Origin: Trueperaceae bacterium | GTDB lineage: Bacteria; Deinococcota; Deinococci; Deinococcales; Trueperaceae | Assembly: GCA_965215565.1 (NCBI GenBank) | Contig: CBDCDZ010000004.1 | Coordinates: 3,655,185 to 3,687,184, forward strand | Direction of reading: 5' to 3' | Length of the DNA: 32,000 nt | Shown here: one piece after another, positions 14,303-32,000 of the stretch | How the letters are laid out: the number at the start of each line of letters is the position of its first letter | Position numbering within the stretch: the stretch's first letter is position 1 | Made by a program: the position numbers and the translations under genes | The notes under the pieces: generated by a model | What the model was told of the DNA's origin: nothing | The model's database searches: none | What the model saw: only the letters and a program-made list of their open reading frames with translations

Positions 14303-14488
14303 ACATTCCCCCAAAGACCGTGCTAGAGCACATGAGTACATGGAAGATACGAGGCTTGCCCTGAATTTCATCTGACTGCAAGCCTGTGGAGGCTGCTTCA
14401 TACGTCTGAAAAAGTATGTTGCGGTTCGCAACAGGTGGACGCAGACACCTGGGCTTGGTCTAAAACCTTGGACACTCAAAGTATACAG

Positions 14489-15461
14489 CTAAGCGGCTAG
14501 GCTCACCTCCTGAGTCTCTTTTCGCTGCTGGGATAGTTCAAAGGTGTCAGGCGTCTCATAGCCGAGCGAGCTGTGCAGCCGCTCGCGGTTGTAGTAGACC
14601 TCGATATATTCGAACACCGCGACGCGGGCGTCATCGCGTGTGGCAAAGCGCTCAATGGGATAAACGAGTTCGCGTTTTAGTGTCGCCCAAAAGCTTTCAA
14701 TGATGGCATTGTCGAAGCAGGCTCCTTTGCCTGTAAAGCTCGGCAGCATCTTGTGCGCTTCGAGTTCGCGCTGATAAGCGTAGGAGGTGTATTGAGAACC
14801 CCTGTCGCCTAGGTGAAGGCTAAGAGCCTTTGAGCTTCGCTCTAACCTTGTGATGAATCAAACCGGGCTGGGGCTTGCGCCGCGTCGTGGCTGAGCATAG
14901 GGCTTGCAGCACGAGGTCAGTCTTCATATTGTCACTCATGGCGTAGCCCACAACGCGCTTAGAGAAGCCGTCAATGACGCCCGCTAGATAAAGCCAGCCC
15001 TCGGCGGTCGGCAGATAGGTAATGTCAACATGCCATACCTGATTGATCGCTGTTGGGCGTGGTTGTTCCAGCAACAGGTTCTGGGTCTCGAGATCACAGC
15101 GCTCATACTTAGTGCGGTGTTTCTTGTGACTCACAGCGTAGAGCCCTTCACGACGCATAAGACGTTTGACTCTGCCTAGCGAACACGAAACCTGCTGCTT
15201 CTTGAGTTCGGCGTGGACACGGGGGCTGCCATATCTGCCCTTATTCTTCTCGAATACCGCTTTGATCTTCTCCAACAGCTCGGCGTTGCGCTTTTCGCAT
15301 TTGCTCGGCTCCCGCTGCTGACGAGCCCGCCAGTGATAGTAGCTGCTCCTAGCCACGCCCAAGACCTTGCACAGCGCCGAGACGGAGAACTCGCTCTGGT
15401 GCGCCTCGATGAACGCGCACTTTAGGTTGTCTGTTTCGCAAAGTAAATGGCGGCCTTTTTT
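14489..15461 (-). pseudogene. IS3-family transposase OrfB (DDE/integrase core), interrupted by a 40-bp insertion
   Basis: It is split into tracked ORFs 14820-15362 and 14489-14749. Deleting 14809-14848 in silico restores the conserved GLIHHSDRGSQYTS motif in one frame. Confidence 0.85.
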
Positions 15462-16396: not shown

Positions 16397-16690
16397 ATGT
16401 CTATAATTGTAAACAAAAGTATGATGCTAAAGGTGAAAAAGTCGAGTAAGCGCACCTCTTACGAACGGGCATTCTTTCGAGCAGTAGGTGCACGCATAGA
16501 GCTGTTCAGGTTGCGGCGCGGGCTGAGCTTGGAGGAAGTTGCTGCCCATACAGTGCATCCGCCCGAGTGGCTGAAGGGGCTCGAGGCGGGAGTGGAGGAA
16601 CCGAGGCTCGACGACCTATTCGGCATCGCCAAGGCGTTAGGCACCGACCCCAGCGAACTCGTGAGGGTGGAGCCGAAGGTGTTTTCTTGA
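16397..16690 (+). CDS. XRE/Cro-C1-family helix-turn-helix regulator
   Basis: HTH_3 pattern: IELFRLRRGLSLEEVAAHT...LKGLEAG...PRLDDLFGIAKALG. The start is ambiguous: a TATAAT at 16402-16407 would favour ATG 16421. Confidence 0.7.
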   Translation: MSIIVNKSMMLKVKKSSKRTSYERAFFRAVGARIELFRLRRGLSLEEVAAHTVHPPEWLKGLEAGVEEPRLDDLFGIAKALGTDPSELVRVEPKVFS

Positions 16691-16740
16691 TACGGTCAGC
16701 TCTCACGGCAGCATAGGGGAACGTGTGACACGATGAGGGC

Positions 16741-16980
16741 ATGTCAGGACGCCGCAAGGACCCGGAATACCAGGCTTACAACCGCAAGGTCGGGGAGAGG
16801 ATCAAGGAGCTGAGGCGGGATAAGAACCTCTCTCAGGAGGAGTTTGCTGCCGAGGTCGGACTCAGCCGCTCGTACCTGAGTTTGCTGGAGACGGCTAAGC
16901 AGGACCCGTCGCTCTCGACGCTCTTTAGGGTGGCGAAGGTTTTGGGGTTGAGTGTGAGTGAGTTGCTCGAGGTGGAGTAG
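16741..16980 (+). CDS. XRE/Cro-C1-family helix-turn-helix regulator
   Basis: Canonical pattern: IKELRRDKNLSQEEFAAEVGLSRSYLSLLETAKQDPSLSTLFRVAKVLG. Confidence 0.85.
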   Translation: MSGRRKDPEYQAYNRKVGERIKELRRDKNLSQEEFAAEVGLSRSYLSLLETAKQDPSLSTLFRVAKVLGLSVSELLEVE

Positions 16981-16996
16981 CGTCACCAGAAACTCT

Positions 16997-18664
16997 TCAG
17001 TAATCTATATTCATAGCTGCACTATCGGCGATTTCGTCTGCTGCTAAAGATAGAGCGTGCCTAAGTGCTTCCTGATTTTCATTCTTGAGCAAGCTGAATC
17101 GCGATTGACTCTGTTCGGGCAAGAGGGTTACGCCCGCCTTTTGAAGAAGTCCTCTATACGCAGGATTAGCCACGAATCCTATCATGTTGGAATAATCGTG
17201 CTTATACTTTTCTATGAAATACATAAGCCTTTCGTAAACCCGCGCTTGAGCTGTTTTATCGCGTTTAGATAAGAGGAAGTCGTAATTCAAAACAGCGGGC
17301 TCTTTCACGTAACGCAGAGGAACAGGTCCGTAAAGCCCGGATAAGAAAACAATGTCGATATCGTTCTCTAGTCCCTGTAAACTTTTCACGACTCGCTTAT
17401 ATGACGATGAGTCGGTGTACGGTTTAGCCTGAGAACAGGTGAGAATTAGACAGATAGGTTTCTTGGCCTTAAAACGCCTTTTACGTATATCGAAGGCAGT
17501 AGGGTCATTTCTGACTGGCTTCACCTCCACTGCTTCCGGTAGAGGCTCGCCCTCAAGCAAGGCGCGGAGCTGGGCTCTTGGACGAGCTAGTTCAACGAGA
17601 TAGTCTTCCAGTACGCCTTTCTCCCGAGCAGCAATTGCCTTATCAAGGATTTGCATATCCATTTCAAGATTGTGAAGTGCAGTCGCAGCATAAACGACAC
17701 TCTTACGTCCCCGCTTAACCTCACCTTTTTTGGCTCGCATTACGAAAACATCTTCATGCACATCGCGCGAGTAGCAGACTTGACATGTACATGGATAGGA
17801 CAAAAGTTCCCAAAGACGTCGTTCTTTGTAATTGGGGGTGATGTATTTAAGTGAGCGAGCTTTCTGAATATAACCACTAGTGTCGAAAGTAGTCGCCCCT
17901 GCATGTAAGAGGAAAGGGACGAGAAGTCCGGTGACACCAAAAACATGCATCGGTAACTCTCCTGCAGCGCCACGTACAGCGCGGACATAACGGACGATCT
18001 CCTGCTGTCTCCCCGCCTTTCTTAACGGAACTATGGAACCTAGCCCTACCCCGTGAACGATCTGCATGAGATTTTCCTTGTCGAGACGTTCAAGCACCTC
18101 CTGCGTGAAGATGGCAGCTTGCTCGGGTGTATTCCCGTGAACAGGAACTACAAGATTTATATCTTTATCCGGTCTCTCAGAAAGAATTCTTGCGCAGTAA
18201 AGTGCATTTTGAAGTGTCTTGTTCAGTCGGTTACGCGACTCTTCTTCAGTTAATCCAGGCGGTATCGGGTAATCTAAAGACACAATCCTCGAAGCGCCTA
18301 AAGCTAGCTGGAGTTCGAGAATCTTTTCCTGCATGTTATGTTCAAAGAAGCCGTAGCGATCCAATCCAGCGGGTGGACCCTGCATGAACACGTAACCACC
18401 TGAGTCAGCTAAAATGTGTGCATGATAATCTAAGTCGAAATTGCCATTGTAGTGTTTACGCAGAGGTTTAGACAGCCACATCTCGAGTTGTTTTGGTAGT
18501 ATGGCACCGTAGTTCAAAAAGTGTAGTGCTTGAACCATCACGGGTATATTACGCCTCAATAAACCTTGTTCCATGCCATGCAAGAGTTGCTTATACATGC
18601 CGCCGCCGTTTGGCGTTGTACCTGTCATCATAGCCGTAACTGGGTATAGGATAGAATTGTGCAC
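16997..18664 (-). CDS. TGT-superfamily (DpdA-like) transglycosylase fused to a C-terminal ArcS-like (DUF5591-type) domain
   Basis: TGT hallmarks are in the canonical order: DSGG (residues 87-90), GVGLGSIVPL, HVFGVTG...TFDTSGY (Asp261), and the zinc motif C292-x-C294-xx-C297 with H331-N. Residues 400-555 carry C410-SQA-KPY-TD-S419, which matches the ArcS PC-x3-KPY-x2-S signature as I recall it. Confidence 0.8.
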   Translation of the reverse strand: MHNSILYPVTAMMTGTTPNGGGMYKQLLHGMEQGLLRRNIPVMVQALHFLNYGAILPKQLEMWLSKPLRKHYNGNFDLDYHAHILADSGGYVFMQGPPAGLDRYGFFEHNMQEKILELQLALGASRIVSLDYPIPPGLTEEESRNRLNKTLQNALYCARILSERPDKDINLVVPVHGNTPEQAAIFTQEVLERLDKENLMQIVHGVGLGSIVPLRKAGRQQEIVRYVRAVRGAAGELPMHVFGVTGLLVPFLLHAGATTFDTSGYIQKARSLKYITPNYKERRLWELLSYPCTCQVCYSRDVHEDVFVMRAKKGEVKRGRKSVVYAATALHNLEMDMQILDKAIAAREKGVLEDYLVELARPRAQLRALLEGEPLPEAVEVKPVRNDPTAFDIRKRRFKAKKPICLILTCSQAKPYTDSSSYKRVVKSLQGLENDIDIVFLSGLYGPVPLRYVKEPAVLNYDFLLSKRDKTAQARVYERLMYFIEKYKHDYSNMIGFVANPAYRGLLQKAGVTLLPEQSQSRFSLLKNENQEALRHALSLAADEIADSAAMNIDY

Positions 18665-18704
18665 AGGAAGACCTTACCGTACGAAGAGCGATAAAGCAAG
18701 ACCT

Positions 18705-19151
18705 TCAAGTAGGAAGCAGGAATTCGTACCGCAACATTTTGCTTATATTCCTATGCGGGTTATCTACGATAAGAACGGTTTCAGCGTTGCGGTAAAAGCT
18801 GCCCCAGAGGAAGTTTGCTGACCCCACTAGAGCGATTTCATCAGTGATCAAACCCTTGCTGTGCAAGTGAGGAACAATGTGGTGTTTATCAGGCGTAAAG
18901 CGCGATAAAAGTGCATTGAGCCTCCGGTCCGGTTCTCTCGTATAGATTGAGGTTCGATGCCCCTGTCCTTGTAGATAAAGTAGCAAGGTGCTCAGTCGTT
19001 GCGGTCCCGATTTATTGACAGGATAAGGTAGCTGTAGGGGTAGATCGTCCATCCAAGGGCTGACAATTGCGATGTCACCCTCGCTACTCAACATAATCTG
19101 AGGAACCAACCACGGCAGCTTCTTAGAGGCTAAGAACACGGTTAGGTGCAC
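18705..19151 (-). CDS. PLD-superfamily (single HKD, Nuc-like) nuclease
   Basis: HSKGLITDEIALVGSANF gives an HxK(x4)D(x5)GSxN motif. The size of about 148 aa would require a dimer. The 5' end overlaps the helicase stop, so the exact start is uncertain (19151, 19139 or 19094). Confidence 0.8.
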   Translation of the reverse strand: MHLTVFLASKKLPWLVPQIMLSSEGDIAIVSPWMDDLPLQLPYPVNKSGPQRLSTLLLYLQGQGHRTSIYTREPDRRLNALLSRFTPDKHHIVPHLHSKGLITDEIALVGSANFLWGSFYRNAETVLIVDNPHRNISKMLRYEFLLPT

Positions 19152-22100
19152 CGCTCTCGAGAACCATCGGTAAGTTTTTCCCCTCTCTAGCCCTTTCGGA
19201 AAGTTCTTTGTTGCTCATCTCTATTATCAGCCTCGATAGTATTGACTCAGCGAGTAACCTTGAAGGCTCCTCGTCACCGATCTGCTGAGTACCGACACAA
19301 ACGGGGCAGCCATCAGTTTCTAAACAGGTGTATTGGAATGGCTCCCCACTCGCTCGTTGGTTGATCAACCGGGTAAGTTCGTTTGAAACTTCGACGAAAA
19401 TATCCTCTGGTAGCGTACTCTGGGGATCGGGTAGGTTGAGGCGTGCCACCGTACGCGTACGTAATAGTTGGGCGTCTATACCATCGCGCAATGCCTCTTC
19501 AGCTAAACCGACAGGGCATAGCACAACACGTAGCAGTTCTTGGTAAACCTGAAGTGCATCAGCCTCAAGTGCTTTCTGGAAAACTTCGATAAGACCCGCG
19601 CCCCCCTCAAAAACTTCCCACACCGAAACGTTATTGTCGCCGATCGCAGACTCTAAATCTTCACGGTGCACGCCGACGACACTTGCTACTGCCCGATGAA
19701 GCAGCTCTCGAGCGGTGGCAAGTGCCACTCCTCGGAGTTGCTGCGGCTGCGCTCGTCCCTCACTAAGCTCGTTGAGCAAGTCATCGAGCTGCCATCCAAG
19801 TGCTTGCGTGTCTATCGTATACACCATTGGCTCAAGGTAACGGACTTCAAAGCGGTCTGGATCGCCGCTAGCCCTGAAATACTCTGCGTCCGCGTCTCTA
19901 TCGTTTGAGTTACTCTTCAGATAACGATGTGACTCAACGTCAGAACCTAAAACTCTGGTCCTCCCTTGTCCCTCAAATACACGCAGTCGCTCGCTAATAC
20001 ACGTTCCCGTATGATTTTCGAAACGCCTCTCTAAGTAGGGCTGGGCGTAGAGCTTTCGAAATTCAAGTTGCCCGCCACATTCACAAACCCGCTTACTAAG
20101 ACTGTGAACCTTGTAGCATTGCTTACAAAATTTAACGACTTGGCGTCCTTGACGGTCCGTACGGACGCCGCGTAAAGGTACAATCTGAGGACGTACACCC
20201 CCTTCTACACTTAAACCCTCAATGGGTAAACGCACCCTGACCCTGCTTCCGTCAACCCAATCAGGGTGGTGTTCCGTATCGAGGGTTGCCAAAGTCGTGT
20301 CTCCATAATGACGATAAGTCAGTCTATACGGTAAATAAAGACTCGCTAAGTTGGAAACTTGCTCCTCTATGTAGTCAGAGCTGCCGCTAGAGTAACGCTT
20401 TTCGAAACGCAAAGGCTTTACGGTTTGAAAGTAAGATGAGGGTAGGAGAGAGCTGATGGAGACCGGACAGTTGTTCTCTACGCAGGTGTGGCTAGGTTCG
20501 CTTACTGCGTCGACGCCAGCGTGTAAATAGTAAAGCGAACCTAGCGTTACTTTTATGTCTTGTGGAGACGATTGGAAGGACCACCCTTTATTCCAGTGCT
20601 CCTTTAACGTGAAAAAGAAGTTGTGGAGCCGCTCGTAGTCAGAGATGCTTCCTTCGCCTGTTCGTCTTAGGTTATAGAGGTGAGCCCTAAGGTTAGTAAG
20701 CAAGGTCACTACTTCTGCGAGATGCTCGGCACGTTCAGGTTCATCAACGAGAATCTGGCTTACTTGGCTGATAAGACTATTGGTAGTAAGACGCTGTGTC
20801 GGCTGTGCTCCTCCAGCGAGGTAGTTGTCGATCTGCTCTCGGAATGCATCTAAGTCATTCATCAACTCGGTGGGAAAAGCGCTTCGAAGTTGAGTCAAAT
20901 GGCGTCTCAAATCGAGGATAGGTCCGGTTCTCTCTAATTCTCTATCAGCCCAGCCAATCAAAGCATCTTTGAATCCAGAAAGATCGAAGTAGCCTGCAAA
21001 TCTGTCTCTAAAATTGTCAAAGTCTTCCTGATACTTAGCACTCAATGTTGGGCAGGCTTCGAGCTGGTCGAGGATGTAACGTGCTATGGCCTTAGGTGGA
21101 AAACTTTCGTTTTGTTGGTAGTACTTGGCATATTGACTACGGTCCCGCTCCAGTCTCTCGTGTAATTGTTGAATAACCGCATTGTCCGTATTGAGGGGGA
21201 TGTCGAAAACGCCATTTAGTAACCGTTGACGTCTAAAAAGTGCGAAGTTATCCGGAGCGTCGTTACCCAATATAAGGATGCTATGACTTAGATCGCCTTG
21301 CTTTCGTCCAGCGCGTCCGCGCCTCTGAGTAAAACCTGCTAGAGAACGCGGTGGTCTGTATTGGACAACAGCTTTGATCTGTTCATTGTCCACGCCTACC
21401 TCCAGTGTAGGCGAAGCGACAAGAAGATTGGGACTAAGATTTTTACCCGTCTTCGATGTGACTTGAGCTACTGAGAGAGGCTCTTCACTAACTACTTCTG
21501 CTGGTTCATAGCAATCTTTGCCACCATGTATTCCTCTCCAGCACTCGCCCGCACTATAGATATCGCAGCGCATAGGTTCCTTGCGAGGGCAGGGTTCATT
21601 ATTCCCATTTAACGGGTAAGAAATATCTTCGACTACCGTGCGGAATGCCCAAAGCCCTTGATTGTGTTCAGCGTCTCGAAGCTGATTAAAAAAGCGCCCC
21701 GTCTGATCGAGAGAATCCGCAAAAATGATAACCTTCTCTTGAGGGGTCAAAAAAGCGTGCCCGAGTGCCATAGCGCACTGGATGAGTAAGGAAGACGGAG
21801 CAGGGCTTGACTCATCAGTTGGCGTCTGAAGCGTGACAAACCCTTCTATTCCTCCCAACTCTTGCTCTGCTTCGTAGGCACTTGAAAGAGCCTCGTGTGC
21901 TCGGACTCCCTGGTCACTCCCGTAAAATAATCGGCTCGCGAAACGTATAGGGTCCGAAATGGTTGCGCTGGCAGCAATGAGCGTGAGTTCTTTGCCAACA
22001 AGTTTCTTCAGCCGATTGATGAGCTGATGAACGTGGACGCCGTAAAGCGAATCGTACAGATGCGCCTCGTCGATAACAATTCCGCTGAGTCCTGTAAGGA

Positions 22101-23010
22101 ACGGTTCAAACTCCGGCCGAAGGTAGAAGGAATCGAGCGACTCGGCTGTCGTTACCATTATCGGTGGGTTTGCCTTGATATGCCCTTCACGCGATATTGA
22201 CACCGCAAAAGTTTTTTTGCAATCTGGGCACTCAAGTTCTCGGTAGGGTTGCTCTCCTTTTGGAAGGAGTCGCAATTTGACCTTCGCACCACAGACGGGA
22301 CATTCTTCTAGCGATTGAAATTCTCCTGATTCGAAGAGGGGAGAGCCATCATCGTCATATTGATTATCGACCGTTAATTGGTCAGAACGCTTGACGGAGC
22401 CGAACTGAATTCCTACCGGAATGACATGACCTTGCTGTCGCGCGAAATAGGCTGCGCTCAACACCCGCGCAAGTTGATCCTCAAGCAGGGCGATGCGAGG
22501 ATAGACTAAAATGAAACGCTGGGTGGGGTTCTTCAAAAGACTGTAGATAAGAGGAAGTACGAAAACTTCCGTTTTTCCGGCTCCCGTAGGTGCCGTGATG
22601 ACGAGTCCAGAGCGATTCTCCACTGATCTCAAAACTTCAGCCCAACCGTCGACCTGAAATCTACTAAATTCTGGGTACGGGCTCAGTTTGGCGACAGCTT
22701 CCTGTTCGGTCGTAGGAAAAGTGCTTACGCTGCGAATAGGTCTTGTGCGAGGTATGGCGTCAAAACGGAGGCGTCCAACAAGAACATTGCCGCTTTCGCT
22801 CGCTCCAAAGCGCTGTTTTACCGTCTCCAAAATCCGCAGTAGCTCAAGCGTTCGTGGCACCTTGACACTAGGGGAAAGGGCGACCATATGTGCATCTGTA
22901 CTGATAGCATTAGAACGCCGCGCCACAACCGCCGCATCTGGCGTTGTGTTGTTGCGATTTACTTCTGTGCTAATTCGCTCCAATTCTGCGAGTAGTTCAG
23001 GCAGCATCAA
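19123..23010 (-). CDS. Large superfamily-2 DEAH helicase with inserted zinc ribbons and a DUF1998-like Cys-rich C-terminus
   Basis: Helicase motifs: APTGAGKT (140-147), DEAH (314-317), SAT (348-350) and QRRGRAGR (562-569). A CxxC...CxxC ribbon (C237, C240, C261, C264) is inserted in the RecA1 domain and a 4-Cys cluster lies at 474-500. A CKQC...CEC ribbon and the DGCPVC motif near the C-terminus (about 1229-1238) fit the DUF1998/MZB signature as I recall it. A GAGG RBS precedes the ATGATG start. Confidence 0.8.
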   Translation of the reverse strand: MMLPELLAELERISTEVNRNNTTPDAAVVARRSNAISTDAHMVALSPSVKVPRTLELLRILETVKQRFGASESGNVLVGRLRFDAIPRTRPIRSVSTFPTTEQEAVAKLSPYPEFSRFQVDGWAEVLRSVENRSGLVITAPTGAGKTEVFVLPLIYSLLKNPTQRFILVYPRIALLEDQLARVLSAAYFARQQGHVIPVGIQFGSVKRSDQLTVDNQYDDDGSPLFESGEFQSLEECPVCGAKVKLRLLPKGEQPYRELECPDCKKTFAVSISREGHIKANPPIMVTTAESLDSFYLRPEFEPFLTGLSGIVIDEAHLYDSLYGVHVHQLINRLKKLVGKELTLIAASATISDPIRFASRLFYGSDQGVRAHEALSSAYEAEQELGGIEGFVTLQTPTDESSPAPSSLLIQCAMALGHAFLTPQEKVIIFADSLDQTGRFFNQLRDAEHNQGLWAFRTVVEDISYPLNGNNEPCPRKEPMRCDIYSAGECWRGIHGGKDCYEPAEVVSEEPLSVAQVTSKTGKNLSPNLLVASPTLEVGVDNEQIKAVVQYRPPRSLAGFTQRRGRAGRKQGDLSHSILILGNDAPDNFALFRRQRLLNGVFDIPLNTDNAVIQQLHERLERDRSQYAKYYQQNESFPPKAIARYILDQLEACPTLSAKYQEDFDNFRDRFAGYFDLSGFKDALIGWADRELERTGPILDLRRHLTQLRSAFPTELMNDLDAFREQIDNYLAGGAQPTQRLTTNSLISQVSQILVDEPERAEHLAEVVTLLTNLRAHLYNLRRTGEGSISDYERLHNFFFTLKEHWNKGWSFQSSPQDIKVTLGSLYYLHAGVDAVSEPSHTCVENNCPVSISSLLPSSYFQTVKPLRFEKRYSSGSSDYIEEQVSNLASLYLPYRLTYRHYGDTTLATLDTEHHPDWVDGSRVRVRLPIEGLSVEGGVRPQIVPLRGVRTDRQGRQVVKFCKQCYKVHSLSKRVCECGGQLEFRKLYAQPYLERRFENHTGTCISERLRVFEGQGRTRVLGSDVESHRYLKSNSNDRDADAEYFRASGDPDRFEVRYLEPMVYTIDTQALGWQLDDLLNELSEGRAQPQQLRGVALATARELLHRAVASVVGVHREDLESAIGDNNVSVWEVFEGGAGLIEVFQKALEADALQVYQELLRVVLCPVGLAEEALRDGIDAQLLRTRTVARLNLPDPQSTLPEDIFVEVSNELTRLINQRASGEPFQYTCLETDGCPVCVGTQQIGDEEPSRLLAESILSRLIIEMSNKELSERAREGKNLPMVLESGAPNRVLSL

Positions 23011-23449
23011 CGTCGACCTCTACTCAACTCTGTATTCAGTTGCTTCGAAGCGGTGCTCACTTCATCGGAAGTCTTTGACATTTTATTGAACTCCTCTAGC
23101 ACTCCAGCGCGTTCGCTCTTTGCGCTCCCCAAGCAGAGATTGTGGAGAAATAGTCTGAGAAAGGTTACTCCACATTCCCTTTTCTATCTGCTAGCTCTTT
23201 CCCCTTCCTTCAGGAACTCATCGGTAAAAATTCACAAGAACTAAATGGAAGCGTAACACGACGTAACGACCTGATGCCATAGTGGATTAAGGGCGTGAGG
23301 AACTTCACAACTACCGTTAGAAATGGCCCTAATCTTCCGCTGAACCAAAGGCATTACGCACAGCATCTTGAGACTAGCTTCTTATATTCGAAATAGGTTA
23401 GCGTTATGAAGCTTACGGCGACTTCAAAGTTTGAGAGAGTGAGATAAGA

Positions 23450-24061
23450 GTGCGAAGAGACGTGTTGATAACGGTTTTAGTAGCCATCTATATCGCTACT
23501 GAGTTAGTTTCGAACGCCACAGCGGGCCGCCTCGTGCAGCTAGGCGCATTTGTCTTCCCTGGAGCGATTTTTCTCTACTCCCTTACCTTTACACTGCGAG
23601 ATGCGGTGCATACAGCGGGCGGTTGGCGCGTCGCCAAAGCGCTCATTTGGGCTGGCTTCATCGCGAACGCTATTCTCGCGCTTTACGGGTTGTCCATTAA
23701 CGCATTTCCTAAACCAGTCTGGTTCGATGACTCAGCTTACCAAGCAGTGTTCGGAACGACGGCAAGGGTAGTCGCCGCTTCTCTGGTTGCTTATCTCGCG
23801 TCCACCTGGCTCGACGCTCTCATCTTTGAACGTTTCAAGCGCTCGATAGTCAACCGCGTGCTTGCCTCAAATGTCGTTTCTACGTCTGTCGATTCTGTCC
23901 TCTTTATTACTATTGCATTCGCCGGCACAGGTGCCCCGCTGCTCAACCTCATTGTCGGACAGATAGTCGTTAAGATGATCGTAAGCACCCTACTCATCCC
24001 TGTCGTATATTGGGTGCGGGACACTTTACGTGAACAAGGGTTGGCGATGGAGGGATACTAG
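23450..24061 (+). CDS. yhhQ: Queuosine-precursor (preQ0/preQ1) transporter, YhhQ/VUT family
   Basis: About 6 TM helices, with the typical motifs ATELVSN...AGRLVQLG, FPGAIFLYSLTFTLRD and SNVVSTSVDSVLF. The start is GTG. Confidence 0.8.
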   Translation: MRRDVLITVLVAIYIATELVSNATAGRLVQLGAFVFPGAIFLYSLTFTLRDAVHTAGGWRVAKALIWAGFIANAILALYGLSINAFPKPVWFDDSAYQAVFGTTARVVAASLVAYLASTWLDALIFERFKRSIVNRVLASNVVSTSVDSVLFITIAFAGTGAPLLNLIVGQIVVKMIVSTLLIPVVYWVRDTLREQGLAMEGY

Positions 24062-24757
24062 ATGTCAAGAGCAGTCGTTCTACTCTCGGGTGGACTCGAC
24101 TCCGCTACAGCAGCTGCACAGGCTATCGCAGACGGCTATGATCTCATGGCCCTTTCCTTCCGATATGGTCAACGTCACGAACGGGAACTCGAAGCTGCTA
24201 AAGCGGTAGCCGAAGCGCTGCACATTCAAGAGCACTTCGTTAGCGACGTCAACTTGGCACAGTGGGGTGGGTCGTCTCTCACCGATGAAGATATAGACGT
24301 GCCTACAGGAGGGAGCGACGCGAATGCCATCCCCTCGACCTACGTTCCCGGACGCAACACCGTCTTCATTGCGATTGCGCTCTCGCTCGCCGAGGCGAAA
24401 AACGCTGAAGCCATATACCTCGGTATCAACGCCGTGGACTACTCGGGTTATCCTGATTGTCGACCTGAGTACTTAGAAGCGTTCAAAAATCTCGCTGAGC
24501 TTTCGAGCAAAGCAGGACTTGAAGGTAATGCGCCTAGGCTTGTTGCCCCACTCGTTATGGACTCGAAGGCAGACATCGTCAGGCGTGCCCTCAGGCTAGG
24601 TGTGCCCATCGAGAGTACATGGTCCTGCTATCAAGGCATGGAGGAGCCGTGTGGAGTCTGCGATTCCTGTCGTATCCGTGATCAGGCTCTTATTAAAGCA
24701 GGGAAAGCAGACTTAGTCGGCTCCTTCAATTTATCTCGCGCTGTCCCGAGTTGCTAG
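24062..24757 (+). CDS. queC: 7-cyano-7-deazaguanine (preQ0) synthase
   Basis: PP-loop [22 protein letters not shown], and the C-terminal zinc cluster CYQG...CGVCDSC. The ATG follows the yhhQ stop directly (TAGATG). Confidence 0.9.
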
Positions 24758-25457
24758 CCCCTGGTTCATTGTCCGCTCCAATAAGGTTCTTATAGCTTTC
24801 GGCAAAAAGTGAAAGCGCAAATATAGTTTCATCAATAACTTCAATTGTCAGGTTGCTTGCTTTCTGAATGGAATCGAATTGAGGTCTCCAACCATTTGCT
24901 TTACTAATAAGTGTAAGTTTAGAAATTAGTTCGGGGTTCATTGTTTCTTTAGTAATTTTCCAGTCATCATGGGGATCATGATCAACTATGTAGCTATATA
25001 ACGGAGTTATTCCCCCACCTCCCGGTCGATCAAAACCGTAGAAGGTATATAGCGATGTTTCCCTGCCTTCAGGTAATGTGTAGAGACAGTTTCGCGCTCT
25101 TTCCTCTAACCATTTAGCCATCCAAGGATTAGAGCCATGTTCGCGCTCACTAGCAACCTTGATCAATTCCCTCAGAATACTTTGGAAGTCTTTGAGGACC
25201 CGCTGAACTAAAGAACAATAATTTAGCAGATGCGTAGCAACGGGGTAGTAGACAGTTTCTTGGATCAAATACCACGCAGCTATGTCTCCTCCCAGAACGC
25301 CATCTTCGTCAACGAACGTTTTAGCATGTCGCTCAATCATCACCGAATACATCTGTTCTAACGCCGACGCACGAGGGTACCAATCTTCATGACCTAGTTC
25401 TCTAATGTCACTAAATACAGAATTATCTGACTCGTCAGGGATCATTTCGTCTCCCAA
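24726..25457 (-). CDS. Hypothetical protein (lowest-GC gene in the window)
   Basis: 243-aa uninterrupted ORF in about 40% GC DNA. Its 3' end overlaps the queC 3' end by 32 nt. No motif recognised. Confidence 0.5.
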
Positions 25458-28721: not shown

Positions 28722-29936
28722 CTACTCGATGATTTCTAGCACGTCCTTAGGCTCAATCTTGCCCTTAAACCAGATCACCTTGGCGCGGGTCTTGCTCACG
28801 TCCACACCCGCACCCTCGAGGTTGAGCCGTTCGGAGACCGCCAAGACCAGGTCGTCCCTGCCCGACTTCTCCACCTGCATAAACTTTTTGCGCAGATACT
28901 CAGGACGCCAGTAGCCCACGATCTCGAAGAGAAAACTGCGTCCATCGGGGTGGACCAGGCGGAAGTCTGGGATCATCACACTGCCGGGGATGGGGACGAG
29001 GTCGACTTCGCGCTCCAAGCGCCACTCGGTCTGTTGGGTGTCCCAGCGCTTGGACAGGGCTTGCTCGAGGATGGAGTCGTAGACCTTCCCCTTCTTGTAG
29101 TGGGAGACCAAGCCACTGTTGGGCTCGAGTGTATACCTCGCTTCTTCGGGCACACCGTCGTAGGTCTGCTTAGGATTCAAGACTGCCGTCATCTGCCAGC
29201 GGGTGACATGTAAAAGGGCGGGGAGGAACTTGGCCAAGTCCACACCATAGCGCGTGGAGGCTTTGAACAAACTATTCGGACCGTCCACTGTAATGGTGAA
29301 GCCGTGCTCAGGGTCGCCCTCAATATAGGCGAGTAAGCGAAAGAGCTTCAGGTAGCGGAAGAGCTGCTTGTACTCGCCGGGGTCGTTGCGATACGCCGTT
29401 AGGACGAGCTCGCTGGCGCGGTAGAGGACGCCCTGCGCTTGCGAGAGGTTGTAGCGGTGGATGAGGGCGTCAGGGGTAGGGGACTCGAAGCTCACCATGA
29501 TCTGGTTCTCCGCTAGGTCGGCATAGAGTCCGGCTCTGACTTGACTGGGTTCGACGTGGGTCTCGAGTTCTCGGCTCAGGGCGTCGGCGACTTCGCTGTG
29601 AATAGCCGTCTCCACCGCTTCGTCCGGTGCTTGCCTTGCAGCCAAAGCGAAGGCCCGCTCCCTAAGCTCTTCCGGTTCTAAGGGGCTGACCGTCTCGAAC
29701 TCAGCAAAGCCGGAGGTAAGGAGATGGGCCAACCCTCGTTTGACCCGGTAGTCCGTCTCTTCCCCCTCGAGCAGTTGCAACTCGGTATCGAGCACGTGAC
29801 GCGGCTTATTCAAGCAAGCACAGAAGACCTGAATGAGTTCTTGCGCCGTCGCCAGGTTCCCTTTACTCAGCTCGAGCCACTTGGGGACGATCTCCTCACC
29901 GTTGTAGCGGTGCATCAACAGCTCGCTCGGCAGCAC
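28722..29936 (-). CDS. DUF790-family (Bax1-like) nuclease partner of XPB
   Basis: The N-terminus LLMHRYNGEEIVPKWL... and the C-terminal IPDFRL...FEIVGYWRPEYLRKK (PD-(D/E)xK-like) fit DUF790. The GTG start overlaps the XPB stop by 1 nt. Confidence 0.7.
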   Translation of the reverse strand: MLPSELLMHRYNGEEIVPKWLELSKGNLATAQELIQVFCACLNKPRHVLDTELQLLEGEETDYRVKRGLAHLLTSGFAEFETVSPLEPEELRERAFALAARQAPDEAVETAIHSEVADALSRELETHVEPSQVRAGLYADLAENQIMVSFESPTPDALIHRYNLSQAQGVLYRASELVLTAYRNDPGEYKQLFRYLKLFRLLAYIEGDPEHGFTITVDGPNSLFKASTRYGVDLAKFLPALLHVTRWQMTAVLNPKQTYDGVPEEARYTLEPNSGLVSHYKKGKVYDSILEQALSKRWDTQQTEWRLEREVDLVPIPGSVMIPDFRLVHPDGRSFLFEIVGYWRPEYLRKKFMQVEKSGRDDLVLAVSERLNLEGAGVDVSKTRAKVIWFKGKIEPKDVLEIIE

Positions 29937-31381: not shown

Positions 31382-31435
31382 CTCGTTAGGCTAGCATTTG
31401 TAAGCGGACGGTTCGAGGGTCCGAGCAATTTCGAC

Positions 31436-32000
31436 TCAGAAAGTTTCTGTAACAAGCTCCGCTATCTCACAAGGAATAGTTGCCGCGACAATTGCGCCAA
31501 GGTTATATACTTCTTCCTCGACCCCGTCGAAGCGTTCCAAGCTGACATACCTGAGCAGCTCCGGGTCGAGGTCGCTCGCATCGCAAGCACACCCAACACC
31601 CTTATGACAGGTATAGGATCGGCTGATACAGCTATTCCCACACGCCTTACCCTTGCTACAAATTTTGCAACAACTCCTGACCTGCTGAGGCGGTTCATAC
31701 GTTGGCTCAGGCTGAGGTTCGGTCATTGTTGAGGCTTGAAGCTGGTCGTAAGCCGAGGTGCCCAGGAGGGCGAGGTTCTGCGCCACGTAATCAACGGCTC
31801 GCAGATCGTCCTCGTTGCGCACGCTGGGATCCGCCCCTAGCTCGAATAGCCTGAGTACCACCTCAGGGTTGGGATTATCCCGAACCGCGTACATCAGCGC
31901 CGTCCAGCCCGCTAAGCTGGTCACGTCAAGCGCTGCGCCCGCCTCAACTAGCAGCGAGACGACCTCCGGGTCCTCGTTGCCCGCGGCGTACATCAGGAGA
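31436..32000 (-). CDS. Ankyrin-repeat protein with a Cys-rich C-terminal module; 5' end outside window
   Basis: Ankyrin repeats are present (GWTALMYAV..NPEVV..L...GADP). The C-terminus reads CCKICSKGKACGNSCISRSYTCHKGVGCAC. The frame is open to the window edge. Confidence 0.75.
   Translation of the reverse strand, partial: LLMYAAGNEDPEVVSLLVEAGAALDVTSLAGWTALMYAVRDNPNPEVVLRLFELGADPSVRNEDDLRAVDYVAQNLALLGTSAYDQLQASTMTEPQPEPTYEPPQQVRSCCKICSKGKACGNSCISRSYTCHKGVGCACDASDLDPELLRYVSLERFDGVEEEVYNLGAIVAATIPCEIAELVTETF

What the first reader, a model, noticed from the sequence alone, without database searches (positions are those of the whole stretch)
16397..24757. Candidate new defence system: DISARM-like helicase/DUF1998/PLD core coupled to 7-deazaguanine DNA modification instead of a methyltransferase
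A low-GC operon on the minus strand encodes three proteins in order: a 1295-aa DEAH helicase with a DUF1998-like C-terminus, a single-HKD PLD nuclease whose start overlaps the helicase stop, and a TGT/DpdA-like transglycosylase fused to an ArcS-like domain. Divergently transcribed from the same 440-bp AT-rich intergenic region are yhhQ (preQ0/preQ1 importer) and queC (preQ0 synthase). Helicase plus DUF1998 plus PLD is the conserved core of DISARM (DrmA/DrmB/DrmC), where self-marking is done by a DNA methyltransferase. No methyltransferase ORF exists here. DpdA-type TGT enzymes insert preQ0 into DNA in the Dpd systems, but the ParB-like DpdB and the DpdC of the Salmonella-type island are not visible here. 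The simplest reading is a compact hybrid. Self DNA would be marked with a 7-deazaguanine derivative by the TGT fusion, fed by the island's own QueC and YhhQ, and unmodified DNA would be attacked by the helicase/PLD pair. To my knowledge this gene combination has not been described.
Basis: partly seen in the sequence, partly recalled or inferred. Interest (0 to 1): 0.9.

Follow-up and report, generated by a model that had tools for sequence, protein, structure and literature searches.

The report
Compact Dpd-like deazaguanine restriction-modification island
A small low-GC island encodes a helicase, a nuclease and an unusual two-domain base-swapping enzyme, plus genes that supply a modified guanine. 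It most likely forms a stripped-down, previously uncharacterised relative of the known Dpd defence system, which marks the cell's own DNA with a 7-deazaguanine and attacks unmarked DNA.

Summary
All five ORFs exist at the stated coordinates, and profile searches support every domain call. DUF1998 is missed by Pfam but recovered by profile-profile and fold comparison.

The helicase and PLD match DpdJ and DpdK better than DISARM DrmA/DrmC. The known Dpd system already couples a YprA-type helicase and a PLD nuclease to 7-deazaguanine DNA modification, so "helicase/PLD plus deazaguanine" is not new in itself.

What is unusual:
- DpdA, DpdB and DpdC are replaced by one protein: an archaeal-type TGT domain with intact catalytic Asp pair and Zn site, fused to an ArcS-core (DUF5591) domain and lacking a PUA domain.
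- The system is only three genes plus yhhQ-queC.

A census supports a functional link:
- Every ortholog of this helicase with enough context sits next to a TGT-DUF5591 gene, despite gene-order changes.
- Elsewhere the same fusion pairs with other nuclease modules: NurA/HerA, GmrSD_N/HEPN and split DrmAB-like.
- About 45 Poribacteria genomes carry the fusion without any such partner.

I found no published description of this architecture. A 2025 preprint mentions uncharacterised deep-branching Dpd-like systems.

Verdict: a new variant of a known kind. DNA modification and defence remain untested.

The parts
19123..23010 (-). YprA-family (DpdJ-like) SF2 DEAH helicase, 1295 aa. It has Zn-ribbon insertions in both RecA lobes and a C-terminal OB/DUF1998-like module with a Cys cluster. 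Predicted translocase/sensor of the restriction half.
   Evidence: - Pfam: DEAD, ResIII, Helicase_C.
- Best family hits: DpdJ 5e-53 in PADLOC and 1.8e-49 in NCBIfam. Only the N-terminal half matches, and the score of 168 bits is far below the 800-bit equivalog cutoff.
- hhalign against YprA: E 1.6e-39 for the motor. E 2.9e-6, Prob 88%, for the DUF1998 region.
- The family profile's best PDB hit is YprA/MrfA 6ZNP, 1e-30.
- Foldseek of the C-terminal model finds 6ZNP at 4.8e-7, then DrmB.
- Walker A, DEAH, QRRGRAGR and four Cys clusters are invariant in 24 orthologs.
18705..19151 (-). Small single-HKD PLD-family nuclease (DpdK-like), 148 aa. Its start overlaps the helicase stop by 29 nt. Predicted DNA-cleaving effector.
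   Evidence: - PLDc_2: 31.5 bits, cutoff 27.
- Best hits are DpdK: 3.3e-10 in PADLOC, 2.7e-9 in NCBIfam (36.8 bits, below the cutoff of 100). DrmC is weaker.
- H-x-K, SAN and RN-E are invariant in 12 orthologs, all directly downstream of the helicase.
- The overlap with the helicase 3' end is conserved in L164 and L165.
16997..18664 (-). Fusion protein, 555 aa. The N-terminal part is an archaeal-type TGT catalytic domain (about residues 1-372). The C-terminal part is a DUF5591 / ArcS-core (C1) domain (about residues 397-520). There is no PUA domain. Predicted DNA-guanine transglycosylase that inserts preQ0 and then modifies its nitrile.
   Evidence: - Pfam TGT and DUF5591. NCBIfam archaeal TgtA 1e-23 and ArcS alpha 2e-11.
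- The family profile against PDB gives ArcTGT 1e-28, AF0587 2.4e-11, bTGT about 1e-6, Cap10 4e-4 and DpdA 7UI4 0.03.
- AF2 model pLDDT 89. The Foldseek top hit is 1IQ8, 8e-19.
- Invariant residues: D87 (DSGG), D131, and H331. Nearly invariant (>=90% of the alignment): D261 (FDxS) and the C292/C294/C297 cysteines that, with H331, form the zinc site. The ArcS motif residues C410, K414, P415 and Y416 are also invariant.
23011..23449 (.). 439-bp divergent intergenic region between the helicase operon and yhhQ-queC. Presumed to hold promoters for both transcription units.
   Evidence: - GC 0.45, the lowest non-coding stretch of the island.
- No Rfam family, including preQ1 riboswitches, at E<=1.
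- The sigma-70 consensus scan finds nothing here, so the promoters are inferred only from gene arrangement.
- The same divergent arrangement occurs in L082.
23450..24061 (+). YhhQ/Vut_1 queuosine-precursor (preQ0/preQ1) transporter, 203 aa.
   Evidence: - Vut_1 4e-34.
- TIGR00697 queuosine precursor transporter: 80.6 bits, above the cutoff of 51.
- Found next to the system in L003, L021, L022, L069, L082, L164 and L165.
24062..24757 (+). [quoted passage not shown] Converts CDG to preQ0.
   Evidence: - QueC Pfam 5e-73.
- TIGR00364: 229 bits, above the cutoff of 150.
- Full length with the C-terminal CxxCxxC, unlike the short Cap9 or QatC.
- Co-located in L002, L021, L022 and L082.
16397..16690 (+). 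Small Cro/C1-type HTH protein, 97 aa, convergent with the TGT gene. It could be a controller protein or could belong to a neighbouring element. Membership in the system is uncertain.
   Evidence: - HTH_31 7.5e-9, HTH_3.
- Weak PADLOC hits to HTH_VI, capH and control protein.
- No homolog in any related locus.
- A different HTH_3 gene sits beside the TGT fusion in Allocoleopsis L081.
14489..15362 (-). Frameshifted IS3-type transposase remnant near the left edge of the low-GC region. It is context and a possible island boundary, not part of the mechanism.
   Evidence: - HTH_21 and rve in the 180-aa ORF.
- rve_3 and rve_2 in the adjacent 86-aa ORF.

Best explanation
The locus is a minimal, deep-branching Dpd-like restriction-modification system based on a 7-deazaguanine mark.

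**Supply.** YhhQ imports preQ0, and QueC makes preQ0 from host-derived CDG.

**Marking.** The TGT domain of the fusion protein exchanges guanine in the cell's own DNA for preQ0. It uses the standard two-aspartate, covalent-intermediate TGT chemistry. The fused ArcS-core (DUF5591) domain then converts the nitrile of DNA-bound preQ0. The product would be the amidine (2'-deoxyarchaeosine, dG+) or a related amide or adduct.

**Restriction.** The translationally coupled YprA-type helicase and single-HKD PLD nuclease form the restriction half. The helicase would load on and translocate along DNA lacking the mark, and the PLD dimer would cleave it.

**Shown here.**
- Gene content.
- Intact catalytic motifs in all five proteins.
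- Family relationships.
- Conserved linkage across distant genomes.

**Inferred.**
- DNA rather than RNA or protein as the TGT substrate.
- The chemical identity of the mark.
- Discrimination of modified from unmodified DNA.
- Any defence phenotype.
For: 1. **All catalytic equipment is intact.** This covers the TGT Asp pair, Zn site and hydrophobic preQ0-pocket pair. It covers the ArcS-core C...KPY...S motif (motif from PMC10516641 and PMC5699537). It covers the helicase motifs I, II and VI, the PLD H-x-K/SAN, and QueC and YhhQ above curated cutoffs.

2. **The helicase and PLD are closest to DpdJ and DpdK.** These belong to the one known 7-deazaguanine restriction-modification system.

3. **Linkage is conserved.**
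   - The helicase family has about 30 clusters among 5.8 billion proteins.
   - It lies next to a TGT-DUF5591 gene in every locus with enough context: the window, L082, L164, L165, L002, L003, L007, L010, L013, L015, L019-L022 and L069.
   - The adjacency holds in three different gene orders.
   - The one exception, L163, ends 260 bp after the helicase.

4. **The same fusion family sits beside other nuclease modules.** This swapping is typical of a modification gene serving varied restriction modules.
   - NurA+HerA.
   - GmrSD_N+HEPN.
   - A split helicase plus an MZB/DUF1998 protein.
   - DUF4365 in place of PLD.
   - PD-(D/E)xK/AAA_11.
   - Haloarchaeal clusters with a DpdC-like DUF6884 protein, a second TGT and QueC/D/E.

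5. **No PUA/tRNA-binding domain is present**. PUA-less DUF5591-only ArcS2 from phage nt-1, together with a DpdA, yields dG+ in plasmid DNA in E. coli (PMC10516641).

6. **The locus looks island-like.** It has low GC, an IS remnant and a sporadic distribution: 135 hits among 185,579 species genomes.

7. **Divergence from L082 is uneven.** HEL, PLD and TGT are 41-53% identical. YhhQ, QueC and the flanking XPB are 75-82% identical. That pattern is expected for arms-race genes.
Against: - There is no experimental evidence for DNA modification or defence in this or any related locus.
- By sequence and fold, the TGT domain is nearest to tRNA-acting ArcTGT, not to DNA-acting DpdA. 7UI4 scores E 0.03 against 1e-28 for ArcTGT. 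No PADLOC DpdA hit was found.
- Salmonella DpdA needs the ATPase DpdB (PMC10164549), and no DpdB-like gene is present here.
- In the window's clade the ArcS motif deviates: P to T and H to Y.
- Euryarchaeal ArcS needs a radical-SAM partner to finish G+ (my recollection of Yokogawa 2019). No such partner is encoded here.
- Only QueC of the preQ0 pathway is present.
- About 45 of the 80 genome loci (Poribacteria) carry the fusion with no helicase or nuclease partner, in housekeeping-like neighbourhoods.
- The helicase and PLD fall far below the curated DpdJ and DpdK cutoffs.
Confidence: 0.65

Rival explanations
1. The TGT-DUF5591 enzyme acts on invading rather than self DNA. In one version it is a base-exchange or base-excision effector that damages or tags foreign DNA. 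In another it senses phage DNA that already carries 7-deazaguanines. The helicase/PLD then processes the lesion, in a type-IV-like or glycosylase-type defence.
For: - TGT chemistry begins with base excision and a covalent enzyme-DNA intermediate (PMC10164549).
- DNA glycosylases are documented defence effectors (title and abstract of bioRxiv 10.1101/2025.10.29.685425).
- The fusion is always beside nucleases, which fits either polarity.
Against: - Island-encoded QueC and YhhQ supply a substrate base. That is needed for exchange, not for excision or sensing.
- The fused nitrile-modifying ArcS-core domain would have no role.
- Constitutive co-expression with an unregulated glycosylase would endanger self DNA.
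Confidence: 0.1
2. QueC and the TGT fusion perform protein deazaguanylation, as Cap9 and Cap10 do in type IV CBASS. The modification would regulate the helicase or nuclease rather than mark DNA.
For: - QueC-like and TGT-like proteins in defence operons can conjugate 7-amido-7-deazaguanine to a protein N-terminus (bioRxiv 10.1101/2025.04.06.647259).
- The family profile detects Cap10 9NTN weakly, at 3.9e-4.
- The window QueC hits the PADLOC QueC model at 2.5e-28.
Against: - Cap10 lacks the Zn site and has remodelled its nucleic-acid surface. Here the CxCxxC...H Zn site is conserved across the family (H331 invariant, the three cysteines in >=90% of sequences).
- QueC here is a full-length canonical enzyme above the TIGR00364 cutoff, not a short Cap9.
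- Many related loci have the fusion and helicase but no QueC.
- No CD-NTase is present.
- The fusion did not hit the PADLOC TGT (Cap10) model.
Confidence: 0.07
3. The fusion is a bacterial tRNA-modifying enzyme that makes an archaeosine-like base in tRNA. Its adjacency to helicase/PLD here is incidental or reflects a mobile-element cargo.
For: - The nearest characterised relatives, ArcTGT and ArcS, act on tRNA.
- In about 45 Poribacteria genomes the gene lies among housekeeping-type genes without nuclease partners.
Against: - There is no PUA or other tRNA-binding C-terminal domain.
- Distribution is sporadic: 135 of 185,579 species.
- Outside Poribacteria nearly every neighbourhood is a nuclease/helicase module.
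- The helicase family is linked exclusively to it.
- GC is island-like.
Confidence: 0.08
4. The locus is a decaying or inactive remnant of a larger Dpd-type island. It would have lost dpdB-I and so has no current function.
For: - An IS remnant lies about 1.6 kb from the operon.
- Canonical Dpd has 11 genes.
- A 243-aa orphan ORF and an HTH gene of unclear role flank the system.
Against: - All five ORFs are full length with intact catalytic motifs.
- The same compact set (yhhQ, TGT fusion, helicase, PLD) recurs as a tight four-gene operon in unrelated contigs L164 and L165, and with queC in L021, L022 and L082.
- So three to five genes is the native architecture.
Confidence: 0.05

Closest known systems
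Dpd system (dpdA-K; Salmonella Montevideo type)
   Same: - 7-deazaguanine-based restriction-modification logic.
- A TGT-superfamily enzyme plus preQ0 supply genes. yhhQ and queC are sometimes embedded in dpd clusters (PMC5699537).
[quoted passage not shown]
   Different: - No DpdB ATPase, no separate DpdC and no DpdD-I.
- The transglycosylase is not of the DpdA family. It is arcTGT-like (1e-28) against 7UI4 at 0.03.
- It is fused to an ArcS-core domain.
- The helicase matches DpdJ only over its N-terminal half and keeps the DUF1998 Cys cluster that canonical DpdJ lost.
- Three core genes instead of eleven.
DISARM (DrmA/DrmB/DrmC plus a methyltransferase)
   Same: - A YprA-like SF2 helicase with a DUF1998 module plus a PLD nuclease.
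- Self/non-self discrimination presumed to rest on DNA modification.
- A relative, L079, even has the helicase and the DUF1998 protein split as in DrmA/DrmB.
   Different: - Helicase and DUF1998 are fused in one chain.
- DrmA and DrmC profile scores are far weaker than DpdJ and DpdK.
- No methyltransferase, and no DrmD or DrmE.
- The mark is predicted to be a 7-deazaguanine.
BRIGADE systems of haloarchaea (Bell et al. 2025 preprint)
   Same: - Dpd-like.
- 7-deazaguanine biosynthesis genes together with YprA helicase(s) and a small PLD nuclease.
- Haloarchaeal loci found here (L065-L078) carry a TGT-DUF5591 homolog (26-30% identity) next to such genes.
   Different: - BRIGADE is reported only in halophilic archaea and usually has two YprA helicases plus DpdG and DpdHI/BrxC.
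- Those loci also carry a second TGT, a DUF6884/DpdC-like protein and QueD/E.
- The window has none of these and is bacterial.
Phage DpdA2 + ArcS2 (Vibrio phage nt-1) dG+ pathway
   Same: - A TGT-family DNA transglycosylase acts together with a PUA-less DUF5591 ArcS-core domain.
- The pair produces dG+ in DNA in E. coli without DpdB (PMC10516641).
   Different: - There the two are separate proteins of a phage and serve anti-restriction.
- Here they are fused in a cellular genome and linked to a helicase/nuclease.
- The window's motif has H to Y and P to T changes.
Archaeal ArcTGT / ArcS (tRNA archaeosine pathway)
   Same: - Closest sequence and fold for both domains.
- Catalytic Asp pair, Zn site and the PCx3KPYx2S core are conserved.
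   Different: - Lacks the C2 and PUA tRNA-binding domains.
- Occurs in bacteria, on a low-GC island, with defence-type neighbours.

Membership tests
Dpd system | DpdA-family DNA-guanine transglycosylase | tested here: not met
   - No PADLOC DpdA or NCBIfam DpdA hit at E<=0.01.
- The family profile gives 7UI4 E 0.031 against ArcTGT 1e-28.
- It is a TGT-superfamily member of a different lineage.
Dpd system | DpdB ParB/DndB-like ATPase required for preQ0 insertion | tested here: not met
   No ParB, DndB or DpdB domain in any window ORF scanned with Pfam or PADLOC.
Dpd system | DpdC (DUF6884) converting dPreQ0 to dADG | tested here: not met
   - No separate DpdC gene.
- The fused DUF5591 domain is only a distant relative of DUF6884/DpdC-like proteins: hhalign Prob 75%, E 2.6e-5.
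Dpd system | DpdJ helicase (NCBIfam NF041067 equivalog) | tested here: inconclusive
   It is the best-scoring family. However, the score is 168 bits against a cutoff of 800, and only residues 98-572 align. PADLOC gives 5e-53.
Dpd system | DpdK PLD nuclease (NF041068) | tested here: inconclusive
   It is the best-scoring family. However, the score is 36.8 bits against a cutoff of 100. PADLOC gives 3.3e-10.
Dpd system | DpdD-I accessory restriction proteins | tested here: not met
   None detected. The only other DpdF-type hit is the same helicase, weakly.
Dpd system | dPreQ0/dADG present in genomic DNA and restriction of unmodified DNA | not testable with these tools
   Requires LC-MS/MS and transformation or phage assays.
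DISARM | DrmA helicase and DrmB (DUF1998) as separate genes | tested here: not met
   - A single 1295-aa chain.
- DrmA hits are only 6e-15.
- The DUF1998-like module is present but fused.
DISARM | DrmC PLD nuclease | tested here: inconclusive
   NF038319 at 2.4e-4, 20.7 bits against a cutoff of 133. This is weaker than DpdK.
DISARM | DrmMI/DrmMII DNA methyltransferase | tested here: not met
   No methyltransferase domain in the window ORFs scanned.
YprA/MrfA helicase family | SF2 DEAH motor followed by an OB/connector/DUF1998 module with a Cys4 Zn cluster | tested here: met
   - hhalign: 1.6e-39 for the motor and 2.9e-6 for the C-terminus.
- PDB profile top hit 6ZNP, 1e-30.
- Foldseek 6ZNP, 4.8e-7.
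- Invariant C1165, C1235 and C1238 plus a majority Cys upstream.
- The Pfam MZB model itself does not fire.
TGT superfamily (active transglycosylase) | General acid/base Asp, nucleophile Asp and structural Zn site (CxCxxC...H) | tested here: met
   - D87 (DSGG) and H331 are invariant across 21 family members. D261 (FDxS), C292, C294 and C297 are conserved in at least 90% of them.
- D261 and the Cys triad align to ArcTGT FDSASY and CSCPVC.
ArcS (archaeosine synthase) | C1-domain motif PC-x3-KPY-x2-S-x2-H | tested here: inconclusive
   - The window has TC-SQA-KPY-TD-S-SS-Y. C, KPY and S are kept. P is changed to T and H to Y.
- Cyanobacterial relatives such as P0043 and P0047 match the motif exactly.
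- The motif is taken from PMC10516641 and PMC5699537.
ArcS (archaeosine synthase) | PUA tRNA-binding domain | tested here: not met
   - No PUA hit, even at E<=10.
- The model ends in a helix after the DUF5591 fold.
Type IV CBASS Cap9/Cap10 | CD-NTase partner, and a Cap10-type TGT lacking the Zn site | tested here: not met
   - No CD-NTase.
- The Zn site is retained.
- The fusion has no PADLOC TGT (Cap10) hit.
- Cap10 9NTN scores only 3.9e-4.
BRIGADE | Haloarchaeal, usually two YprA helicases with DpdG and DpdHI/BrxC | tested here: not met
   One helicase, no DpdG/H/I hits, and bacterial flanks.

The most novel reading that the evidence does not exclude
The TGT-ArcS-core fusion defines a portable, DpdB-independent DNA hypermodification module of cellular organisms.

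- It would write dG+ or a still-unknown amidine or amide 7-deazaguanine adduct into genomic DNA.
- It would serve as the 'M' half for at least four unrelated restriction modules: fused YprA helicase/PLD, split DrmAB-like, NurA/HerA and GmrSD_N/HEPN.
- These occur across Chloroflexota, Cyanobacteria, Deinococcota, Acidobacteriota and Halobacteria.

That would amount to a new superfamily of 7-deazaguanine restriction-modification systems. The window locus would be its minimal three-gene YprA/PLD form. It would also be the first case of an archaeosine-type base in bacterial chromosomal DNA.
Probability: 0.35. Interest if true: 0.8.

Novelty: new variant of a known kind. Interest (0 to 1): 0.62.

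Why it matters
**Mechanism.** If the prediction holds, a single polypeptide would replace DpdA, DpdB and DpdC.
- It would show that cellular, not only phage, TGT enzymes can modify DNA without a ParB-like ATPase.
- A three-gene YprA/PLD system would be the simplest available model for how Dpd- and DISARM-type helicases tell marked from unmarked DNA. That question is still open for both systems.

**Chemistry.** The fused ArcS-core domain predicts dG+ or a new adduct in bacterial chromosomal DNA. No such base has been reported there in the literature I could search.

**Evolution.** The same modification gene pairs with four different nuclease modules. This gives a natural experiment in how restriction modules are swapped around a hypermodified base.

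**Practical use.** A compact enzyme that writes a bulky 7-deazaguanine into DNA could serve for DNA protection or labelling.

Tried and rejected
- **Pfam DUF1998/MZB on the helicase C-terminus at E<=10.** No hit. This was resolved by hhalign and fold search.
- **preQ1 or other riboswitch in 14-27 kb.** None at E<=1.
- **Sigma-70 and terminator consensus scan.** Fewer hits than in shuffles and none in the intergenic region, so it was uninformative.
- **Reverse census by metagenome scan with the helicase alignment.** The derived patterns were generic helicase motifs and returned only about 25%-identical unrelated helicases, so it was unusable. I replaced it with targeted contig look-ups.
- **Identifying the source organism.**
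  - The exact-protein contig look-up found nothing.
  - The cluster look-up gave no names.
  - XPB homologs gave only weak hints of Deinococcota-like MAGs at 66-70% identity. The organism remains unknown.
- **The primary Dpd paper (Thiaville 2016).** It is not held in the library. I relied on PMC5699537 and PMC10164549 instead.
- **WP_015211588.** I could not establish whether this 'DpdA' of Microcoleus PCC 7113 in PMC5699537 is the TGT-DUF5591 protein of Allocoleopsis PCC 7113 (P0066, L081).
- **ORF895 (11792-14479) as a system component displaced by an IS.** I considered this because its C-terminus matches the gene downstream of the TGT fusion in L082. It looks like a wHTH/TPR regulator and is not found in other loci, so I left it out.
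- **The 243-aa ORF 24726-25457.** It has no homolog anywhere, so I left it out.

Full report
**1. What is in the sequence**

| Gene | Coordinates | Strand | Length |
|---|---|---|---|
| Helicase | 19123-23010 | - | 1295 aa |
| PLD | 18705-19151 | - | 148 aa |
| TGT-DUF5591 fusion | 16997-18664 | - | 555 aa |
| yhhQ | 23450-24061 | + | 203 aa |
| queC | 24062-24757 | + | 231 aa |

- The PLD's GTG start overlaps the helicase 3' end by 29 nt.
- The fusion gene starts 40 nt downstream of the PLD.
- yhhQ and queC lie across a 439-bp intergenic region and are transcribed divergently from the helicase operon.
- The three minus-strand genes have GC 0.47-0.50 and the intergenic region 0.45. The flanks have GC 0.575-0.60.
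- A frameshifted IS3-type transposase remnant lies at 14489-15362.
- The flanks encode ordinary chromosomal genes: aldose epimerase, Ser/Thr kinases and PP2C, sulfotransferase, esterase, SDR, and a Bax1-XPB pair.
- No tRNA gene and no Rfam family, including preQ1 riboswitches, is present.

**2. Domain assignments**

Pfam supports the following:
- DEAD, ResIII and Helicase_C for the helicase.
- PLDc_2 for the nuclease.
- TGT plus DUF5591 for the fusion.
- Vut_1 for YhhQ.
- QueC for QueC.

YhhQ and QueC also pass NCBI's curated equivalog cutoffs.

The one claim Pfam does not support directly is the DUF1998-like C-terminus, which gives no hit even at E<=10. I tested it three further ways.

- **Profile-profile comparison.** I aligned 24 orthologs and compared the C-terminal part with that of canonical YprA proteins carrying PF09369.
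  - Window residues about 1059-1263 aligned with Prob 88%, E 2.9e-6.
  - The LHxxxH, (Y/E)xGGxG and C...GCPxC motifs were in register.
  - A ~70-residue insertion explains the Pfam failure.
- **Fold comparison.** An AlphaFold model of residues 641-1295 (pLDDT 83.5) has a single significant PDB match, the 'DUF1998 helicase' MrfA 6ZNP (E 4.8e-7). DrmB of DISARM (7S9V_B) is next. TM-scores are low because the model is multi-domain.
- **Family profile against PDB.** The full family profile's best PDB sequence match is YprA/MrfA, 1e-30. The motor aligns to YprA at E 1.6e-39.

The helicase is therefore a YprA-family enzyme with a fused, insertion-bearing DUF1998-type module. It also has Cys4-type insertions in both RecA lobes and in the OB region (invariant Cys columns).

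**3. Which known system do the restriction genes resemble?**

Against defence-specific libraries, the helicase's best model is DpdJ.
- PADLOC gives 5.1e-53 and NCBIfam 1.8e-49 for DpdJ.
- DruE and DrmA are far behind, at 1.6e-18 and 6.4e-15.

The PLD's best model is DpdK.
- PADLOC gives 3.3e-10 and NCBIfam 2.7e-9 for DpdK.
- DrmC scores about 1e-4.

Both fall far below the curated equivalog cutoffs: 168 against 800 bits, and 36.8 against 100 bits. Only the N-terminal half of DpdJ aligns. They are therefore distant relatives, not orthologs.

This matters for the interpretation.
- The canonical Dpd system already joins a YprA-type helicase (DpdJ) and a small PLD nuclease (DpdK) to 7-deazaguanine DNA modification (PMC10164549).
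- The 2025 preprint of Bell et al. [quoted passage not shown] The window helicase fits that description of a deeper-branching Dpd-like form. The preprint's text and held supplements do not mention TGT, ArcS, QueC or DUF5591.

**4. The modification enzyme**

The 555-aa protein is not a DpdA-family member.
- It has no PADLOC or NCBIfam DpdA hit.
- Its family profile scores P. horikoshii ArcTGT at 1e-28, bacterial and eukaryotic TGTs at about 1e-6, Cap10 at 3.9e-4, and Salmonella DpdA (7UI4) at only 0.031.
- Its C-terminal part matches NCBIfam ArcS alpha (2.2e-11) and the archaeal DUF5591 protein AF0587 (2.4e-11).
- The AlphaFold model is confident (pLDDT 89). Its best Foldseek match is ArcTGT 1IQ8 (E 7.8e-19 over 495 columns).

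Across 21 family members at 27-52% identity, the catalytic equipment is invariant or nearly so.
- D87 in DSGG is invariant. This is the general acid/base by analogy with D95 of ArcTGT and DpdA.
- D131 is invariant.
- D261 in FDxS is nearly invariant (>=90%). This is the nucleophile, and it aligns to D249 of ArcTGT.
- The Zn site combines the nearly invariant C292, C294 and C297 with the invariant H331.
- A hydrophobic pair (I211-V212) sits where ArcTGT has the preQ0-selective V-V pair.

In the DUF5591 domain the published ArcS core motif PC-x3-KPY-x2-S-x2-H (PMC10516641, PMC5699537) is largely kept.
- C410, K414, P415 and Y416 are invariant.
- Cyanobacterial members match the motif exactly.
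- The window and its closest relatives have T for P and Y or A for H.

There is no PUA domain. PUA is the tRNA-binding element of ArcTGT and ArcS.

A profile comparison also links DUF5591 distantly to the DUF6884/DpdC-like proteins of haloarchaeal loci (Prob 75%, E 2.6e-5). Either amidine (ArcS-like) or amide (DpdC-like) chemistry on the nitrile is therefore conceivable.

**5. Gene-neighbourhood census**

A scan of one genome per species (185,579 species) found 135 stretches encoding a relative of the fusion. I analysed the best 80 by ORF clustering, jackhmmer and Pfam/PADLOC scans of partners.

*Loci with the helicase*
- A full-length ortholog of the window helicase lies directly beside the fusion in L002, L003, L007, L010, L013, L015, L019, L020, L021, L022 and L069.
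- These come from Deinococcales, Thermoflexus, Microcoleus, Thermogemmatispora, Aggregatilineales/Anaerolineae, Spirulina and Chloroflexia.
- A PLD ortholog follows the helicase in seven of them.
  - Two contigs (L013, L015) are truncated at that point.
  - In L010 the PLD is replaced by a DUF4365 protein.
  - In L020 it is replaced by GmrSD_N+HEPN.
- A more distant helicase plus PLD occurs in the haloarchaeal L078.

*Reverse direction*
- The helicase family is tiny, about 30 clusters at 32-53% identity among 5.8 billion proteins.
- Contig look-ups of three members gave the following results:
  - A tight yhhQ-fusion-helicase-PLD operon twice (L164, L165).
  - One contig that ends 260 bp after the helicase (L163).
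- The closest relative, L082, has the window's architecture: queC and yhhQ divergent from helicase-PLD-fusion.
- Three more helicase/fusion pairs share contig lengths.
- Three gene orders occur: helicase-PLD-fusion, fusion-helicase-PLD, and convergent. Adjacency survives all of them.

*Other partners of the fusion*
- NurA+HerA in L001, L005 and L009.
- GmrSD_N (PADLOC NsnA 1e-60) plus a MAE_28990-type HEPN protein in nine cyanobacteria and L081.
- A split 1374-aa helicase plus a 639-aa MZB/DUF1998 protein plus UvrD in L079, a DrmA/DrmB-like arrangement.
- A PD-(D/E)xK/AAA_11 protein in L060.
- An N6 DNA methylase in L004.
- Haloarchaeal clusters with a DUF6884/DpdC-like protein, a second TGT, a GHKL ATPase and QueC/QueD/QueE.

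*Reading and caveat*
- This is the pattern expected if the fusion is a modification module that serves interchangeable restriction modules.
- About 45 of the 80 loci are from Poribacteria. There the gene has no helicase or nuclease partner and sits among metabolic genes. Ten of these loci have an N6_N4 DNA methylase immediately upstream. This part of the family is unexplained.

**6. Evolutionary signal**

Identities between the window and L082 are uneven.

| Protein | Identity |
|---|---|
| Flanking XPB helicase | 77.5% |
| YhhQ | 82% |
| QueC | 75% |
| Helicase | 53% |
| TGT-DUF5591 fusion | 51% |
| PLD | 41% |

- The restriction and modification genes thus diverge much faster than both the precursor-supply genes and a neighbouring chromosomal gene.
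- This fits arms-race or specificity evolution, or module replacement.

**7. Most likely mechanism**

*Steps shown by sequence:* all five proteins look catalytically competent and are genetically linked.

*Steps inferred:*
- YhhQ and QueC raise the preQ0 pool.
- The TGT domain exchanges G for preQ0 in chromosomal DNA. No DpdB is needed, as with phage DpdA2, which works alone in E. coli (PMC10516641).
- The fused ArcS-core domain converts the nitrile in situ, probably to dG+.
- The YprA helicase with its coupled PLD nuclease acts on DNA lacking the mark.

I put this at about 0.65.

*Main uncertainties:*
- The substrate. The nearest characterised relatives act on tRNA.
- The absence of any ATPase partner or radical-SAM partner.
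- The deviant H to Y in the motif.
- The total lack of experimental data.

**8. Rivals**

| Rival | Main objection | Estimate |
|---|---|---|
| The fusion acts on foreign DNA as effector or sensor | QueC, YhhQ and the nitrile-modifying domain would then have no role | ~0.10 |
| Cap9/Cap10-like protein deazaguanylation | Zn site retained, QueC canonical, many loci have no QueC, no CD-NTase | ~0.07 |
| A tRNA enzyme unrelated to its neighbours | No PUA domain, exclusive helicase linkage | ~0.08 |
| A decayed remnant of a larger island | The same compact operon recurs intact elsewhere | ~0.05 |

**9. Novelty**

- Full-text searches for DUF5591, DpdJ/DpdK, ArcS+DpdA fusions and deazaguanine defence systems found no description of this architecture.
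- The Bell et al. preprint acknowledges unnamed Dpd-like classes.
- A 2016 review lists a 'DpdA' from Microcoleus PCC 7113. I could not establish whether that is the fusion protein found here in that genome.
- I therefore rate the locus a new variant of a known kind (Dpd/DISARM-type YprA systems), not a categorically new system.
- The fusion enzyme and its modular partnerships are the most interesting part.

**10. Limits**

- The organism is unidentified.
- The rest of the genome could not be checked for folE, queD, queE or tgt.
- The primary Dpd paper was not available.
- The census rests on crude ORF calling and on at most 10 kb of flank.

Noticed in passing
window 16997-24757 vs L082: Between the window and its closest relative locus, helicase, PLD and TGT fusion are only 53%, 41% and 51% identical. 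YhhQ, QueC and the flanking XPB are 82%, 75% and 77.5% identical. The restriction and modification genes evolve much faster than the supply and flanking genes.
   Followed up: partly
L079:9836-19963: In a Chloroflexota MAG the TGT-DUF5591 gene is next to a split pair and a UvrD-like helicase. The pair is a 1374-aa helicase and a 639-aa protein with a bona fide Pfam MZB/DUF1998 domain (1.2e-9). This is a DrmA/DrmB-like layout coupled to the same fusion enzyme.
   Followed up: partly
L001:6191-9837, L009, L005; L006/L008/L012/L014/L016/L017/L045/L053/L081: The same fusion enzyme is paired with NurA+HerA in Thermosporothrix, Blastocatellia and an Anaerolineae MAG. In nine cyanobacterial genome loci plus Allocoleopsis PCC 7113 (L081) it is paired with a GmrSD_N (NsnA-like) protein and a MAE_28990-type HEPN protein. 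None of these have a helicase.
   Followed up: partly
L024-L063, L073, L074 (Poribacteria MAGs): About 45 Poribacteria genomes carry a TGT-DUF5591 gene with no helicase or nuclease partner, among metabolic genes. In ten of them an N6_N4 DNA methylase with a Rho_N-like N-terminus sits immediately upstream. Its role there is unexplained.
   Followed up: partly
L021:16237-16641, L022: A nucleoside 2-deoxyribosyltransferase gene lies between the PLD gene and yhhQ-queC in two Anaerolineae-type loci. It may be a base-salvage or base-exchange accessory.
   Followed up: no
L065-L078 (Halobacteria): Haloarchaeal loci carry several genes in one cluster: the fusion, a DUF6884/DpdC-like protein, a second TGT of about 415 aa with a weak DpdA hit, a GHKL ATPase, and QueC/QueE/QueD. 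L078 adds two YprA helicases and a PLD, resembling the published BRIGADE systems.
   Followed up: partly
window 16997-18664 (N-terminus): The database protein for this gene (P0001, 544 aa) starts 11 residues later than the GTG ORF. The omitted residues include the strand 'ILYPV', which aligns with a conserved N-terminal strand in the family. The longer start is therefore more likely.
   Followed up: partly
window 11792-14479 (-): An 895-aa ORF has no Pfam hit. Its C-terminal 186 aa are 40% identical to the C-terminus of the 441-aa gene (ABC_tran plus weak YTH3_C) immediately downstream of the fusion gene in L082. By eye it resembles a SARP/BTAD winged-helix plus TPR regulator. An IS remnant separates it from the operon.
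   Followed up: partly
window 14489-15362 (-): A frameshifted IS3-family transposase remnant. HTH_21 and rve are in one ORF, and rve_3/rve_2 in the next.
   Followed up: partly
window 24726-25457 (-): A 243-aa ORF with the lowest GC of the island (0.43). It has no Pfam, PADLOC or NCBIfam hit and no homolog in any related locus. It overlaps the 3' end of queC by 32 nt on the opposite strand. It may be an orphan gene or may not be a gene.
   Followed up: partly
window 28722-31993 (-): A Bax1 (DUF790)-XPB helicase pair is followed by an ankyrin-repeat protein. A second XPB paralog (71% identity) is on the same 4.39-Mb contig. XPB and ankyrin genes also flank the island in L082.
   Followed up: no
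L163:4247-8947: In Crocosphaera sp. XPORK-15E the helicase ortholog is preceded by a DndB-family protein, a UvrD helicase and a PD-(D/E)xK protein. DpdB is DndB-like. The contig ends before any TGT gene could be seen.
   Followed up: no
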